NCBI RefSeq assembly: GCF_965641715.1
Contig: NZ_OZ282453.1
DNA length: 64,000 bases
Strand: one strand, 5' to 3'
Source of the DNA: Escherichia coli
GTDB taxonomy: Bacteria > Pseudomonadota > Gammaproteobacteria > Enterobacterales > Enterobacteriaceae
The translations under genes and the position numbers were made by a program. How positions within the stretch are numbered: position 1 is the first letter of the stretch; every line of letters begins with the position of its first letter. Of the stretch, positions 378-5,535 are shown piece by piece. The notes under the pieces were generated by a model. That model saw only the letters and a program-made list of their open reading frames with translations. It did not search any database and had not been told where the DNA came from.

Positions 378-997
378 GGAACGGGCTGCTGGCGCTGATT
401 TGCTGGCTGTGTTGTGTTGTTGCCCATAGCGAAATGCTGAATGTCGAACAATCCGGGCTGTTTCGCGCCTGGTTTGTACGCATTGCACAAGAACAGCTCC
501 GCCAGGGGCCAAGTCCACGCTGGTATCAGCAGGATTGTGCGGGCCTGGTGCGATTTGCGGCGAACGAGACGCTGAAAGTTCACGACAGTAAATGGCTAAA
601 AAGTAACGGTTTATCTAGCCAGTATTTGCCGCCAGAGATGACGCTAACACCTGAACAGCGGCAACTGGCGCAAAACTGGAATCAGGGGAACGGGAAAACC
701 GGACCCTACGTAACCGCGATTAATTTGATTCAGTACAACAGCCAATTTATTGGCCAGGACATAAACCAGGCGCTGCCTGGCGATATGATTTTTTTCGATC
801 AGGGCGATGCCCAGCACTTAATGGTCTGGATGGGGCGTTACGTCATCTACCACACCGGAAGCGCCACGAAAACTGACAACGGAATGCGCGCAGTCAGTCT
901 GCAACAACTTATGACATGGAAGGACACCCGATGGATACCCAACGATTCCAATCCCAATTTCATTGGCATTTATCGTTTAAATTTTCTGGCGCGATAG
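374..997 (+). CDS. yfaT: DUF1175-family secreted protein with NlpC/P60-like Cys/His motifs
   Basis: ORF 347-997; start adjusted to ATG 374 ([12 protein letters not shown]..., 207 aa). N-terminal hydrophobic signal-like segment; DCAGLV and H-x12-H motifs resemble those of MepS in this same window. Confidence 0.8.
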
Positions 998-3900
998 CAG
1001 CGTGCTTGTCCCTGTCTCTTGTGGGAACAGGGCTTGCTAATGCTGATGATTCGCTTCCTTCCAGTAACTATGCGCCGCCCGCAGGGGGAACATTCTTTTT
1101 GCTTGCTGACAGCAGTTTTAGCAGCAGTGAAGAGGCGAAAGTGCGACTGGAAGCGCCGGGGCGTGATTATCGACGCTATCAGATGGAAGAGTACGGCGGC
1201 GTGGACGTTCGCCTGTATCGTATTCCTGACCCGATGGCATTTTTGCGCCAGCAGAAAAACCTGCATCGCATTGTGGTGCAACCGCAATATTTAGGCGACG
1301 GGCTGAACAATACGCTGACCTGGCTGTGGGATAACTGGTACGGCAAATCTCGCCGCGTGATGCAGCGTACTTTCTCTTCTCAGTCACGGCAGAATGTGAC
1401 TCAGGCATTACCCGAATTACATCTCGGCAATGCCATTATTAAACCTTCCCGTTATGTACAGAACAACCAGTTTTCCCCGCTGAAAAAATATCCCCTGGTG
1501 GAACAGTTCCGTTATCCACTATGGCAGGCTAAACCGGTCGAGCCGCAGCAAGGGGTAAAACTGGAAGGCGCATCCAGCAATTTCATCTCGCCGCAGCCGG
1601 GTAACATTTATATTCCTCTCGGCCAACAAGAGCCGGGACTGTACCTCGTCGAGGCGATGGTTGGTGGGTATCGGGCGACGACGGTGGTGTTTGTTTCCGA
1701 TACCGTGGCGCTTAGCAAAGTGTCAGGCAAAGAGCTTCTGGTGTGGACCGCGGGTAAAAAACAGGGTGAAGCGAAGCCCGGCTCAGAGATCTTGTGGACT
1801 GACGGTCTTGGCGTGATGACCCGCGGTGTGACCAATGACAGCGGTACCTTGCAGTTACAACATATATCGCCAGAACGTTCATACATTCTGGGTAAGGATG
1901 CTGAAGGCGGCGTTTTTGTCTCCGAGAACTTCTTCTACGAAAGCGAAATCTACAACACCCGCTTGTATATCTTTACCGATCGCCCGCTATATCGCGCAGG
2001 CGATCGTGTCGATGTTAAAGTGATGGGCCGCGAGTTCCACGATCCGTTGCATTCATCCCCCATCGTCAGCGCCCCGGCGAAGCTTTCGGTGCTGGACGCT
2101 AACGGCAGTCTGTTGCAAACCGTCAATGTCACGCTGGATGCGCGCAATGGCGGGCAGGGGAGTTTCCGCCTGCCAGAAAATGCCGTTGCCGGAGGTTATG
2201 AGTTACGTCTTGCTTACCGCAATCAGATCTATAGCAGTAGTTTTCGCGTAGCCAACTATATCAAGCCACATTTCGAGATTGGTTTAGCCCTCGACAAAAA
2301 AGAGTTCAAAACTGGCGAAGCGGTCAGCGGCAAACTGCAACTGCTCTACCCGGATGGTGAGCCGGTAAAAGATGCCCGCGTGCAGTTAAGTTTGCGCGCT
2401 CAGCAATTATCAATGGTTGGTAACGATTTGCGTTATGCCGGACGTTTTCCCGTGTCGCTGGAAGGCAGTGAAACGGTGTCCGACGCCAGCGGTCATGTGG
2501 CGTTAAATCTCCCCGCCGCCGATAAACCGAGCCGTTATTTGTTAACCGTCTCCGCCAGTGACGGCGCGGCGTATCGCGTCACCACCACCAAAGAGATCCT
2601 CATTGAACGCGGCCTGGCGCATTACTCTTTAAGTACCGCCGCACAATACAGTAATAGCGGCGAGTCGGTTGTGTTCCGTTATGCCGCGCTGGAATCTTCA
2701 AAACAGGTTCCTGTTACGTATGAATGGTTGCGTCTCGAAGACCGCACGAGCCATAGCGGAGAGCTACCGTCTGGCGGCAAATCCTTTACCGTCAATTTCG
2801 ATAAACCTGGCAACTACAATCTGACGTTACGCGATAAAGACGGCTTAATTCTCGCCGGGTTAAGCCATGCAGTCAGCGGTAAGGGCAGCACGGCGCATAC
2901 TGGTACGGTAGATATCGTGGCAGATAAAACGCTGTACCAGCCTGGCGAAACCGCGAAGATGCTGATTACCTTCCCGGAGCCAATTGATGAAGCATTATTG
3001 ACGCTGGAACGCGATCGCGTTGAACAGCAGTCGCTGCTATCGCATCCGGCAAACTGGCTGACGTTACAACGTTTAAACGATACTCAGTATGAAGCCCGTG
3101 TTTCAGTGAGCAATTCCTTTGCGCCTAACATCACTTTTTCGGTGCTGTATACCCGTAACGGTCAGTACAGTTTTCAGAACGCCGGGATCAAAGTTGCCGT
3201 TCCCCAGCTGGATATCCGGGTGAAAACGGACAAAACCCATTACCAGCCTGGTGAACTGGTCAATGTTGAATTAACCTCGTCGCTGAAAGGTAAACCTGTT
3301 TCTGCGCAGCTAACGGTAGGCGTGGTCGATGAAATGATCTACGCGCTGCAACCAGAAATCGCGCCGAATATCGGCAAATTTTTCTATCCGCTGGGGCGTA
3401 ACAATGTACGCACCAGCTCCAGTCTGTCGTTTATCAGCTACGACCAGGCGCTCTCCAGCGAGCCGGTTGCGCCTGGCGCGACTAACCGCAGCGAGCGGCG
3501 AGTAAAAATGCTTGAACGTCCACGGCGTGAAGAGGTGGATACCGCGGCATGGATGCCGTCACTCACAACCGATAAACAAGGCAAAGCGTATTTCACGTTC
3601 CTGATGCCTGATTCGTTAACCCGCTGGCGTATCACCGCGCGTGGGATGAACGGCGACGGGCTGGTCGGGCAGGGGCGTGCTTATCTGCGTTCGGAAAAAA
3701 ATCTCTACATGAAGTGGAGTATGCCAACGGTGTATCGCGTGGGCGACAAACCGTCGGCAGGACTGTTTATCTTCAGTCAGCAGGATAACGAACCGGTGGC
3801 GCTGGTGACTAAATTTGCAGGCGCTGAGATGCGCCAGACGCTGACGCTGCACAAAGGGGCGAATTATATTTCGCTGGCGCAGAACATTCAGCAATCTGGC

Positions 3901-5535
3901 TTGTTAAGTGCAGAACTGCAACAAAATGGGCAAGTGCAGGACAGCATTAGCACAAAACTGTCTTTTGTGGATAACAGCTGGCCCGTTGAACAGCAGAAAA
4001 ATGTCATGCTCGGTGGTGGCGATAACGCGCTGATGTTGCCCGAGCAGGCGAGCAATATCCGGCTACAAAGTAGTGAAACGCCGCAGGAGATTTTCCGTAA
4101 CAATCTTGATGCGTTAGTCGATGAACCGTGGGGTGGCGTGATCAACACCGGTAGCCGTCTGATCCCGCTCAGTCTCGCCTGGCGTTCGCTTGCCGATCAT
4201 CAAAGTGCCGCCGCTAACGACATTCGTCAGATGATTCAGGATAACCGTCTGCGGCTGATGCAACTGGCGGGGCCCGGAGCGCGCTTTACCTGGTGGGGTG
4301 AAGATGGCAATGGTGACGCCTTCCTTACGGCATGGGCATGGTACGCCGACTGGCAGGCCAGCCAGGCGCTCGGCGTAACGCAACAACCGGAATACTGGCA
4401 GCATATGCTCGACAGTTATGCCGAGCAGGCAGATAACATGCCGTTATTGCATCGGGCGCTGGTGCTGGCGTGGGCACAGGAGATGAATCTGCCGTGCAAA
4501 ACGTTGTTGAAAGGGTTGGATGAAGCTATCGCCCGGCGCGGAACTAAAACTGAAGATTTCTCTGAGGAAGACACCCGCGATATCAATGACAGCCTGATCC
4601 TCGATACACCGGAATCTCCACTGGCAGATGCGGTGGCAAACGTCTTAACCATGACGTTGCTGAAAAAAGCGCAGTTGAAGTCCACGGTGATGCCACAGGT
4701 TCAGCAATATGCGTGGGATAAAGCGGCAAACAGCAATCAGCCGCTGGCGCACACGGTAGTGCTGCTCAATAGCGGGGGCGACGCTACCCAGGCGGCTGCT
4801 ATTTTAAGTGGTTTGACCGCTGAGCAATCCACTATTGAGCGCGCGCTGGCCATGAACTGGCTGGCGAAATATATGGCGACAATGCCTTCGGTTGTGTTGC
4901 CTGCGCCTGCGGGCGCATGGGCCAAACATAAGTTAACTGGAGGGGGCGAATACTGGCGTTGGGTTGGTCAGGGCGTGCCGGACATTCTCTCTTTTGGTGA
5001 CGAATTATCGCCGCAAAATGTGCAGGTCCGCTGGCGTGAAGCGGCAAAAACGGCTCAACAAAGTAACATTCCGGTGACCGTTGAACGCCAGTTGTATCGG
5101 CTTATCCCTGGTGAAGAAGATATGAGCTTTACTCTGCAACCGGTGACCAGCAATGAGATTGACAGCGATGCGCTGTATCTCGATGAAATTACGCTTACCA
5201 GCGAGCAGGATGCAGTTCTGCGCTATGGTCAGGTGGAAGTACCGCTCCCGCCGGGAGCCGACGTTGAGCGCACAACATGGGGCATTTCAGTCAATAAACC
5301 CAACGCCGCGAAACAGCAGGGGCAATTGCTGGAAAAAGCGCGTAATGAAATGGGCGAACTGGCCTATATGGTGCCGGTGAAAGAACTGACGGGAACGGTC
5401 ACTTTCCGCCATTTGCTGCGCTTCTCGCAAAAAGGGCAATTCGTTCTGCCTCCTGCTCGTTATGTGCGTTCCTATGCACCTGCGCAGCAAAGTGTTGCGG
5501 CAGGGAGCGAATGGCCCGGGATGCAGGTGAAATAA
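931..5535 (+). CDS. yfaS: Alpha-2-macroglobulin family protein YfaS (MG-domain protein, no thioester motif), apparently intact
   Basis: 1539-codon ORF 916-5535; start probably ATG 931 (MDTQRFQ...), which overlaps the yfaT 3' end. Signal-like N-terminus (...[11 protein letters not shown]). Only two Cys in the whole protein and no C-x-E-Q motif. Recognised as the YfaS family by sequence and by cluster context. Confidence 0.85.

What the first reader, a model, noticed from the sequence alone, without database searches (positions are those of the whole stretch)
931..5535. YfaS is a 1,534-1,539-residue macroglobulin homologue with only two cysteines and no CxEQ thioester motif
Reading the translation, I find only two Cys in the whole protein: one in the N-terminal signal region (AIAACLSL) and one in NLPCKTLL. 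Neither is part of a C-x-E-Q thioester motif. The protein therefore cannot trap proteases through the classical thioester bond, and it is essentially disulfide-free, which is unusual for a large periplasmic protein. The start codon is ambiguous (916 or 931) and overlaps yfaT.
Basis: seen in the sequence. Interest (0 to 1): 0.4.

Follow-up and report, generated by a model that had tools for sequence, protein, structure and literature searches.

The report
Known thioester-less bacterial macroglobulin YfaS

Summary
The ORF at 916/931..5535 (+) encodes 1,539 or 1,534 residues with exactly two Cys and no C-x-E-Q. It is E. coli yfaS. It is intact here, whereas K-12 carries a W1368* nonsense mutation. 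It lies in the yfaA-yfaT-yfaS-yfaQ-yfaP cluster, the counterpart of Pseudomonas magBCDEF.

Profile alignment places YfaS G1069-V-I-N1072 at the position of ECAM C1187-L-E-Q1190. An AlphaFold model shows the thioester domain fold is kept. A classical thioester is therefore impossible.

Cys25 lies in the predicted Sec signal peptide. Cys1189 is Escherichia-specific (Val, Thr, Ile or Ala in all other homologues examined). The mature protein therefore has one unconserved Cys and no possible intramolecular disulfide.

None of this is new. Papers from 2013 and 2018, both citing Budd 2004, define operon-encoded "type II" bacterial macroglobulins as lacking CXEQ and cysteines, and show non-covalent protease trapping by MagD. 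Cys poverty is a family trait: ECAM has three Cys.

ATG931 is the best-supported start. It has a Shine-Dalgarno sequence, it yields a signal peptide, and its architecture is shared with distant homologues. RefSeq's GTG1021 start removes the signal peptide.

Side finding: most YfaS-family relatives, all in mag-type operons where checked, retain CxEQ. The "type II = thioester-less" rule is therefore not general.

The parts
6..377 (+). 3' end of yfaA (DUF2138; MagB counterpart), cut by the window edge
   Evidence: Pfam DUF2138, E 2e-62. RefSeq annotation of the syntenic locus L001.
374..997 (+). yfaT (DUF1175/MagC family, NlpC/P60-like). Its conserved C-terminal motif [22 protein letters not shown] is encoded in the overlap with yfaS.
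   Evidence: Pfam DUF1175, E 1e-57, plus a weak NLPC_P60 hit. The C-terminus is conserved in Serratia, P. citronellolis and a 32%-identical low-GC homologue.
931..5535 (+). yfaS coding sequence from the preferred start ATG931: 1,534 aa, a type II (MagD-type) bacterial alpha-2-macroglobulin
   Evidence: K-12 annotates the same 4,605-nt span as the yfaS pseudogene.
916..930 (+). Alternative upstream in-frame ATG916 (adds MEGHP). It has no Shine-Dalgarno sequence. The stretch itself contains the GGAAGGA Shine-Dalgarno sequence that serves ATG931.
931..1044 (+). Predicted Sec (SPase I) signal peptide of 38 aa: n-region with R5 and K17, h-region [19 protein letters not shown], then ANA|DD. It contains Cys25 (codon 1003-1005).
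   Evidence: Hydropathy profile. A38 and D40 are invariant, and the mature N-terminus [DE]x[LV]P.S.Y is conserved in 24 homologues. This is a heuristic prediction; SignalP was not run.
1021..1023 (+). GTG used as the start by RefSeq/PGAP in other E. coli (1,504-aa product). It lies inside the signal peptide and is a probable mis-annotation.
   Evidence: L001 CDS 6106-10620. Cluster P0003 has 40,950 member sequences starting [10 protein letters not shown].
3472..3540 (+). Bait-region-like segment [23 protein letters not shown] (aa 848-870), homologous to the experimentally cleaved MagD bait ANRSERG
   Evidence: Sequence match. MagD bait residues 847-853 are given in PMC5764988. Pfam A2M_BRD covers aa 666-811 in 916 numbering.
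4135..4146 (+). Remnant of the thioester site: G1069-V-I-N1072, aligned to ECAM C1187-L-E-Q1190
   Evidence: BLASTP, hhalign and the family alignment. In the model it lies at the N-cap of the second TED helix.
4486..4509 (+). NLPCKTLL, containing Cys1189 (codon 4495-4497), the only Cys of the mature protein. It is Escherichia-specific.
   Evidence: The aligned residue is Val, Thr, Ile or Ala in all 50 non-Escherichia homologues, and Cys only in E. coli and E. albertii.
4066..4872 (+). Thioester-domain (TED) homologue: an alpha-helical domain, aa ~1046-1314 (model residues 186-449)
   Evidence: AlphaFold2 model with pLDDT 89.6 and pTM 0.86, showing 13 helices flanked by CUB and MG domains. Foldseek hits to ECAM, SaA2M, C5 and C3 at E about 1e-22. 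No Pfam TED hit, even at E<=1.
5536..7185 (+). yfaQ (tandem DUF2300 plus a SpoIID-like region; MagE counterpart). Its GTG start directly abuts the yfaS stop codon.
7190..7966 (+). yfaP (DUF2135/YfaP_C; MagF counterpart)

Best explanation
The feature is the intact E. coli yfaS gene. YfaS is the enterobacterial orthologue of Pseudomonas aeruginosa MagD, a 'type II' bacterial alpha-2-macroglobulin.

Shown here:
- The gene has the full macroglobulin architecture: MG domains, a bait-region domain, and an MG7-CUB-TED-CUB-MG10 C-terminal half.
- It lies in the conserved yfaA-yfaT-yfaS-yfaQ-yfaP (magBCDEF-like) operon.
- It is under purifying selection.
- Its thioester site has decayed from C-x-E-Q to G-V-I-N.

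Inferred from the MagD literature:
- The protein is exported by a Sec signal peptide that starts at ATG931 and is cleaved after ANA38, which removes Cys25.
- It is held at the inner membrane in a complex with the other operon products.
- When its bait region (TNRSERR...) is cut, it changes conformation and cages the attacking enzyme non-covalently.
- It contributes in this way to defence of the periplasm and peptidoglycan, for example against injected type VI effectors.

The near-absence of cysteine is inherited from a family in which the thioester Cys is normally the only Cys of the mature chain. YfaS lost that one and gained an unconserved one.
For: - Cys and motif scan.
- Domains.
- Synteny and annotation as 'alpha-2-macroglobulin family protein' between yfaT and yfaQ in 5,383 of 5,426 complete E. 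coli genomes.
- The K-12 pseudogene differs by W1368*.
- dN/dS is 0.09 against K-12 and 0.15 against strain YZMc3-1.
- hhalign of the YfaS family against ECAM gives 99% probability (E 8.5e-17) and aligns [12 protein letters not shown] with PYG-CLEQ-TASGL. BLASTP gives the same register.
- The AF2 model (pLDDT 89.6) has a helical TED between CUB halves. Its best PDB matches are native ECAM, Salmonella A2M and C5/C3.
- The six-gene mag operon surrounds a 55%-identical Pseudomonas homologue.
- Literature: type II A2Ms lack CXEQ and Cys, carry a signal peptide, associate with the inner membrane through MagB, and trap a protease non-covalently after bait cleavage (PMC3735191, PMC5764988). MagD protects against the peptidoglycan-targeting T6SS effectors VgrG3 and Tae1 (PMC12663445).
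- Start codon. AAGGA lies 6 nt upstream of ATG931, and ATG916 has nothing comparable. Only starts upstream of nt ~980 give a hydrophobic signal sequence. The same architecture, M.T..RQ.QF.R.LS followed by the h-region, is found in homologues down to 32% identity.
Against: - No experiment on E. coli YfaS itself was found in the searchable literature. Localisation, complex formation and trapping are all extrapolated from a roughly 55%-identical Pseudomonas-type protein.
- E. coli lacks a magA counterpart upstream of yfaA, so it has five genes rather than six.
- K-12 and a number of other strains carry truncated alleles, so the gene is dispensable in the laboratory.
- MagD's documented protection is against VgrG3 (lysozyme-like) and Tae1, not classical proteases, and that paper calls the mechanism unresolved.
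- The signal-peptide call is heuristic. IAAC also fits a relaxed lipobox.
Confidence: 0.8

Rival explanations
1. yfaS in E. coli is a decaying relic. After losing the thioester it has no function and is drifting towards pseudogene status.
For: K-12 carries W1368* and is annotated as a pseudogene. Many truncated E. coli products of 959-1,379 aa appear in the protein database. The thioester site is the most degenerate in the family, with C, E and Q all replaced.
Against: dN/dS is 0.09-0.15 within E. coli. The ORF is intact over 4.6 kb here. The full-length cluster holds 40,950 sequences. 5,362 of 5,426 complete genomes cover at least 80% of the gene. The GV[IV]N state is shared by Escherichia, Serratia, Yersinia and others with about 55% overall identity and hundreds of invariant residues, which means long-term conservation after the loss.
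Confidence: 0.07
2. YfaS is not a protease trap. It is instead a scaffold or shield that protects or repairs peptidoglycan together with YfaT (NlpC/P60-like) and YfaQ (SpoIID-like). For example, it might bind or sequester glycoside-hydrolase or amidase effectors without bait cleavage.
For: MagD protects against VgrG3 (lysozyme-like) and Tae1 but not other effector classes, and the mechanism is declared open (PMC12663445). The operon partners have peptidoglycan-related folds. The thioester is absent.
Against: The bait-region domain and the MagD-like bait sequence are conserved. MagD with a TEV bait stably trapped TEV after cleavage (PMC5764988). The modelled C-terminal half adopts the 'native, loaded' domain arrangement of ECAM and C5 rather than the activated one (TMq 0.52-0.62 against 0.35-0.37).
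Confidence: 0.12
3. Cys25 is a lipobox cysteine (I-A-A-C). On this view YfaS is a lipoprotein like ECAM, so both Cys residues are retained in the mature protein.
For: IAAC matches the relaxed lipobox [LVI][ASTVI][GAS]C. Type I A2Ms are lipoproteins (ECAM LAGC). AIAAC is conserved in E. albertii.
Against: The 13 residues after Cys25 ([13 protein letters not shown]) continue the hydrophobic core and end in a canonical AxA|DD site. Every orthologue has an AxA-type site immediately before the conserved mature N-terminus [DE]x[LV]P.S.Y, and their signal-region Cys, when present, is at non-lipobox positions. MagD is reported to have no lipobox and to depend on MagB for membrane association.
Confidence: 0.05

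Closest known systems
MagD (PA4489) of Pseudomonas aeruginosa, a 'type II' bacterial alpha-2-macroglobulin of the magABCDEF operon
   Same: The domain set and length (about 1,500 aa) match. Close Pseudomonas homologues share about 55% identity. The operon partners are the same (DUF2138/MagB, DUF1175/MagC, DUF2300/MagE, DUF2135/MagF). Both have a Sec signal peptide without a functional lipobox and a homologous bait sequence (ANRSERG against TNRSERR). Both lack the thioester Cys and are nearly free of cysteine.
   Different: The E. coli cluster has five genes, with no magA upstream of yfaA. The YfaS site is more decayed (GVIN, with E and Q also lost). The cysteine-free Pseudomonas relatives examined here read GVEQ; MagD's own sequence was not retrieved. 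YfaS carries one lineage-specific Cys (C1189). Its signal peptide starts 67 nt inside the upstream gene. No experimental data exist for YfaS itself.
ECAM/YfhM of E. coli and Sa-A2M of Salmonella, 'type I' bacterial alpha-2-macroglobulins (PDB 5a42, 4ziu, 4ziq, 4rtd, 4u48)
   Same: The overall fold is the same: hhalign 99% over about 1,400 columns, and Foldseek E about 1e-22 for the MG7-CUB-TED-MG10 half. Both have a bait-region domain and a periplasmic location. ECAM is also extremely poor in cysteine (3 Cys).
   Different: Sequence identity is only about 20%. YfaS has GVIN where ECAM has CLEQ. The YfaS TED gives no Pfam TED_complement hit. YfaS has no clear lipobox, and it sits in the yfa operon rather than next to pbpC. 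YfaS gives no hit to the bMG1, bMG2, bMG5 or bMG6 Pfam models that ECAM matches.
Complement C5 and other naturally thioester-less members of the C3/A2M superfamily
   Same: The TED fold is retained without the Cys-Gln thioester. C5 is the top Foldseek hit of the YfaS C-terminal model. These proteins function through proteolysis-triggered conformational change rather than covalent capture.
   Different: They are eukaryotic, two-chain, rich in disulfides and glycosylated. They have different partners and a different biological role. Sequence identity is about 11%.

Membership tests
Alpha-2-macroglobulin / C3 superfamily | Tandem macroglobulin (MG) beta-sandwich domains | tested here: met
   Pfam MG2 (E 1e-26), A2M/MG7 (E 3e-12) and bMG10 (E 2.5e-6), all above the gathering score. 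Beta-sandwich MG7 and MG10 appear in the AF2 model.
Alpha-2-macroglobulin / C3 superfamily | Bait-region domain between MG6 and MG7 | tested here: met
   Pfam A2M_BRD, E 6e-17. The sequence TNRSERR is homologous to the cleaved MagD bait ANRSERG.
Alpha-2-macroglobulin / C3 superfamily | Helical thioester domain (TED) inserted in a CUB domain | tested here: met
   AF2 model with pLDDT 89.6, showing 13 helices (model 186-449) between two beta segments. Foldseek hits to ECAM, SaA2M, C5 and C3 at E about 1e-22. hhalign runs through the TED. Pfam's TED model does not score.
Alpha-2-macroglobulin / C3 superfamily | C-x-E-Q thioester motif | tested here: not met
   No C.EQ anywhere in the protein. The aligned site reads G1069-V-I-N1072. 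The motif is also absent in accepted members such as C5 and MagD.
Type II (MagD/YfaS-type) bacterial A2M | Encoded in the DUF2138-DUF1175(MagC)-A2M-DUF2300-DUF2135 operon | tested here: met
   Pfam on the neighbouring genes. RefSeq synteny. The same order is found in Pseudomonas, Serratia and metagenomic homologues. A magA counterpart is absent in E. coli.
Type II (MagD/YfaS-type) bacterial A2M | No CXEQ and no, or almost no, cysteine in the mature protein (as defined in PMC3735191 and PMC5764988) | tested here: met
   The mature chain has one unconserved Cys. This 'defining' feature fails for most family relatives, which keep CxEQ.
Type II (MagD/YfaS-type) bacterial A2M | Sec signal peptide without lipobox; periplasmic and inner-membrane associated through MagB | tested here: inconclusive
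   The hydrophobic core and the ANA|DD site are found by heuristic only. IAAC formally fits a relaxed lipobox. Localisation and complex formation cannot be tested in silico.
Type II (MagD/YfaS-type) bacterial A2M | Non-covalent protease entrapment after bait cleavage | not testable with these tools
   Shown only for MagD with an engineered TEV bait (PMC5764988).
Type I (YfhM/ECAM-type) bacterial A2M | CLEQ thioester, N-terminal lipobox, and a gene adjacent to pbpC | tested here: not met
   The site reads GVIN. There is no pbpC nearby; the neighbours are yfaT and yfaQ. The true yfhM-pbpC pair lies elsewhere in the genome.

The most novel reading that the evidence does not exclude
The textbook split of bacterial macroglobulins into 'type I = thioester, next to pbpC' and 'type II = no thioester, mag/yfa operon' is an artefact of the two type II proteins studied, MagD and YfaS.

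In a survey of the YfaS family, 30 of 39 cluster representatives at 50% identity keep C[VITA]EQ at the aligned site. These representatives are 32-52% identical to YfaS. All five such members whose loci could be read sit in DUF2138-MagC-A2M-DUF2300-YfaP operons. A rough tree shows the Cys was lost independently about eight or more times.

On this reading the mag-type system is ancestrally a covalent trap. E. coli YfaS would be the end point of a graded decay, CVEQ to GVEQ to GV(I/V)N. That decay offers natural series for asking what the thioester adds to the Mag complex.
Probability: 0.75. Interest if true: 0.4.

Novelty: already known. Interest (0 to 1): 0.15.

Why it matters
The finding as stated matters little. 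It re-derives the published definition of type II bacterial alpha-2-macroglobulins.

Three practical by-products are useful:
1. The RefSeq start for this protein in tens of thousands of E. coli records (GTG1021) deletes the export signal. It should be ATG931.
2. K-12 is a natural yfaS nonsense mutant, so functional work needs a wild strain such as the source of this window.
3. The thioester motif is retained in most mag-operon macroglobulins. This changes how results from MagD should be generalised. It also identifies close pairs, such as CVEQ and GVEQ Pseudomonas species, for testing covalent against non-covalent trapping.

Tried and rejected
- A phmmer search of YfaS against PDB sequences found nothing at E<=1e-3. 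A family profile was needed to reach ECAM.
- NCBIfam has no model for YfaS, YfaT, YfaQ or YfaP.
- Pfam's TED_complement model does not detect the YfaS TED even at E<=1. TED status therefore rests on hhalign and the AF2 model.
- Budd et al. 2004 and Doan & Gettins 2008 are not held in the library. I could not check whether CxEQ-bearing yfaS-type genes were already noted there.
- I first inferred that the 'ancestral' start was the ATG of the CGATGA magC-stop overlap seen in Serratia and Pseudomonas, lost in E. coli as ATA at nt 994. I dropped this polarity after finding that distant homologues, including a 32%-identical one, use the long-overlap start equivalent to ATG931. Which arrangement is ancestral remains open.
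- The conserved N-terminal peptide MDT.R.Q.QL..HLS is not independent evidence for translation. It mirrors the conserved MagC C-terminus in the other frame.
- I could not retrieve P. aeruginosa MagD itself. No sequence in hand has ANRSERG at residue 847.
- P0122 has no contig on record, and the P0138 locus has gene calls but no DNA.

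
Full report
**Observation.** The six-frame ORF list shows one long ORF at 916..5535 on the + strand. Translating it and scanning mechanically gives 1,539 residues from ATG916, or 1,534 from ATG931. There are exactly two cysteines. One is codon 1003-1005 in AIAACLSL and the other is codon 4495-4497 in NLPCKTLL. There is no match to C.EQ. The upstream ORF (yfaT) ends with TAG at 995-997, so the overlap is 67 nt from ATG931 or 82 nt from ATG916. Compared with the other long ORFs of the window (0.92% Cys), two or fewer Cys in 1,534 residues has a binomial probability of about 8e-5. 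Other Cys-free ORFs do occur in the window.

**Identity and context.** Pfam finds MG2, A2M_BRD, A2M (MG7) and bMG10 above threshold. The flanking genes are DUF2138 (yfaA, cut by the window edge), DUF1175/NlpC-P60-like (yfaT), tandem DUF2300 with a SpoIID-like region (yfaQ) and DUF2135 (yfaP).

Megablast finds the gene in 5,383 of 5,426 complete E. coli genomes, mostly at 95-99% identity, annotated as 'alpha-2-macroglobulin family protein' between yfaT and yfaQ.

In K-12 MG1655 the same 4,605-nt span (starting at the equivalent of ATG931) is annotated as the yfaS pseudogene. The only disabling difference from the window is W1368*. The window copy is intact. Its divergence from K-12 and from strain YZMc3-1 gives dN/dS of 0.09 and 0.15, which indicates purifying selection.

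**The thioester site.** ECAM/YfhM, taken from K-12, has CLEQ at 1187-1190. Three analyses put YfaS E-P-W-G-G1069-V-I-N1072-T-G-S-R-L opposite ECAM Y-P-Y-G-C1187-L-E-Q1190-T-A-S-G-L:
- BLASTP;
- local hhalign of a 24-sequence YfaS-family profile;
- global hhalign of the same profile (99% probability, E 8.5e-17, 1,398 aligned columns).

The flanking TED motifs (F.WW / FALW, LTAY) also align.

An AlphaFold2 model of residues 866-1534, built on a 52-sequence alignment, is confident (pLDDT 89.6, pTM 0.86). It shows MG7, a CUB half, a 13-helix domain, the second CUB half and MG10. GVIN sits at the N-cap of the second helix.

Foldseek against the PDB returns complement C5, native ECAM (5a42, 4ziu) and Salmonella A2M (4u48) at E about 1e-22, with query TM-scores of 0.52-0.62. 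Protease-activated ECAM (4rtd, 4ziq) scores only 0.35-0.37 and C3b about 0.25. The thioester domain is therefore retained and is modelled in the 'loaded' arrangement. Its reactive Cys and Gln are replaced, so a classical beta-cysteinyl-gamma-glutamyl thioester cannot form. This step is shown.

**The two cysteines.** Cys25 (931 numbering) lies in the hydrophobic core of the N-terminal signal sequence (hydropathy maximum at residues 18-28). That sequence ends in ANA|DD, directly before the family-wide mature N-terminus [DE]x[LV]P.S.Y. Cleavage by signal peptidase I would remove Cys25. This is an inference, because SignalP was not available.

IAAC does fit a relaxed lipobox. However, the continuing hydrophobic stretch, the conserved AxA site and the MagD literature (no lipobox, membrane association through MagB) argue against lipidation.

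Cys1189 is found only in E. coli and E. albertii. All 50 other aligned homologues have Val, Thr, Ile or Ala at that position. The mature protein therefore has a single unconserved Cys and cannot form an intramolecular disulfide.

This is not peculiar to YfaS. ECAM has three Cys in 1,653 residues: two in the signal and lipobox region and one in CLEQ. YfaS-family members have zero or one Cys in the mature chain.

**Start codon.** There are four in-frame candidates: ATG916, ATG931, TTG1006 and GTG1021. RefSeq/PGAP uses GTG1021 in other E. coli, and a 40,950-member cluster starts [10 protein letters not shown]. That product has no hydrophobic leader, which is implausible for a periplasmic macroglobulin.

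ATG931 is preceded by GGAAGGA with a 6-nt spacer. ATG916 has no such element and is itself part of that Shine-Dalgarno region.

The DNA here is constrained by the other frame. The YfaT/MagC C-terminus [22 protein letters not shown] is conserved in E. coli, Serratia, P. citronellolis and a 32%-identical low-GC homologue. It automatically generates both the ATGs and the Shine-Dalgarno sequence (aCA TGG AAG GAC ACC CGA TGG). Conservation of the peptide MDT.R.Q.QL..HLS is therefore not independent evidence of translation.

What does discriminate is architecture. In E. coli, E. albertii and many distant family members, the hydrophobic core follows directly after this peptide, and gene callers place the start at the ATG931-equivalent codon, whether ATG, GTG or TTG. 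Serratia, Yersinia and Pseudomonas instead have a second Met that forms an ATGA overlap with the magC stop, followed by a self-contained signal peptide. In E. coli that position is ATA (nt 994). ATG931 is therefore the best-supported start. It agrees with the K-12 annotation, and only an experiment can settle it.

**How it most likely works.** YfaS has not been studied directly, and the searchable literature holds nothing on it. Its Pseudomonas-type relatives are about 55% identical and sit in the six-gene magABCDEF arrangement. For P. aeruginosa MagD the literature shows the following:
- It is exported to the periplasm.
- It associates with the inner membrane in a complex with MagA, MagB and MagF.
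- It is insensitive to methylamine.
- Its bait region ANRSERG is cleaved.
- It stably traps TEV protease non-covalently when given a TEV bait.

These points come from PMC3735191 and PMC5764988.

A 2025 study shows that magD protects against the peptidoglycan-targeting T6SS effectors VgrG3 and Tae1, and leaves the mechanism open (PMC12663445). YfaS keeps the homologous bait sequence [20 protein letters not shown].

I therefore commit, at about 0.8, to a periplasmic, bait-triggered, non-covalent cage working with YfaA, YfaT, YfaQ and YfaP. The rivals are a peptidoglycan-protecting scaffold role without proteolytic triggering (0.12), a decaying gene (0.07) and a lipoprotein variant (0.05).

**Comparison with what is known.** The finding coincides with the published definition of 'type II' bacterial A2Ms. 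That definition is credited in both MagD papers to Budd et al. 2004, which I could not open. Both papers state that E. coli carries both forms. The finding is therefore already known.

**Side finding.** A phmmer scan of 1.84 billion cluster representatives found 5,307 relatives at E<=1e-10. Among the 39 full-length representatives at 32-52% identity, 30 carry C[VITA]EQ at the aligned site. Nine have lost the Cys (GVEQ, SLEQ, SAEQ, GAEG, GVEL, GVEH, TVEQ).

Among closer Pseudomonas homologues, CVEQ forms (citronellolis, knackmussii, alcaligenes) and GVEQ forms (nitroreducens, flavescens) are interleaved. All Enterobacterales sampled share GV(I/V)N.

Five CxEQ-bearing members at 55, 44, 40, 37 and 32% identity all lie in DUF2138-MagC-A2M-DUF2300-YfaP operons, not next to pbpC. 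A rough neighbour-joining tree places CxEQ on every deep branch and makes the losses polyphyletic.

The equation 'mag-type operon = no thioester' therefore does not hold for the family. E. coli YfaS is the most decayed state. I cannot exclude that Budd et al. already noted this.

**Verdict.** Interest is low (0.15). The annotation error at the start codon and the decoupling of operon type from thioester status are the only points worth passing on.

Noticed in passing
window 1021-1023; L001 6106: RefSeq/PGAP starts the E. coli protein at GTG1021, giving a 1,504-aa product that begins [10 protein letters not shown]. The cluster holds 40,950 sequences. This start removes the whole hydrophobic signal sequence and is probably a systematic start-site mis-annotation. 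K-12's pseudogene feature uses the ATG931 equivalent.
   Followed up: yes
L004 8001-12545, L007 3566-8200, L008 4364-8872, L006 1456-6081; proteins P0121-P0169: Most YfaS/MagD-family macroglobulins keep an intact C[VITA]EQ motif (30 of 39 representatives at 50% identity), even though they sit in mag-type operons. The Cys was lost many times independently, and Enterobacterales share the most decayed form, GV(I/V)N. This contradicts the published generalisation that type II A2Ms lack the thioester.
   Followed up: yes
window 916-997 (yfaT/yfaS overlap); L005 7986-8067; L004 7923-8004; L006 1441-1522: The start codon and Shine-Dalgarno sequence of the macroglobulin gene are embedded in the codons for a highly conserved MagC/YfaT C-terminal motif (W-K-D-x-R-W-x-P...NPNF). 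The overlap of about 65-80 nt persists down to 32% protein identity. The third base of the MagC Arg codon sets the macroglobulin start codon (ATG, GTG or TTG).
   Followed up: partly
L003 5799-10403 (K-12 yfaS); proteins P0006-P0059: K-12 yfaS is inactivated by a single nonsense change, W1368*. Many other E. coli entries are truncated or fused, with products of 959, 999 and 1,362 aa and some fusions to YfaQ. These suggest recurrent disruption or assembly and annotation artefacts in a minority of strains.
   Followed up: partly
window 7966-8241: rcsC (8241-11090) follows yfaP after only about 275 nt. In K-12 the ato genes lie next to yfaP; atoD, atoA, atoE and atoB were seen in the fetched region. 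They are therefore absent here, as in strain YZMc3-1.
   Followed up: no
window 3526-5532 (model m42182e61ae51): The AlphaFold model of the C-terminal half matches native ('loaded') ECAM, C5 and C3 much better than protease-activated ECAM or C3b (TMq 0.52-0.62 against 0.23-0.37), although no thioester is present to hold that state.
   Followed up: no
window 5533-5538 and 7183-7192: The junctions are tightly coupled. The yfaS TAA stop is immediately followed by the yfaQ GTG start at 5536. yfaP starts 4 nt after the yfaQ stop. This is consistent with a single translationally coupled operon.
   Followed up: no
protein P0041 (E. coli variant): One E. coli allele reads FSGAMAAC instead of FSGAIAAC. 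It therefore has ATG at the position (nt 994) where Serratia and Pseudomonas place their short-overlap start codon.
   Followed up: no
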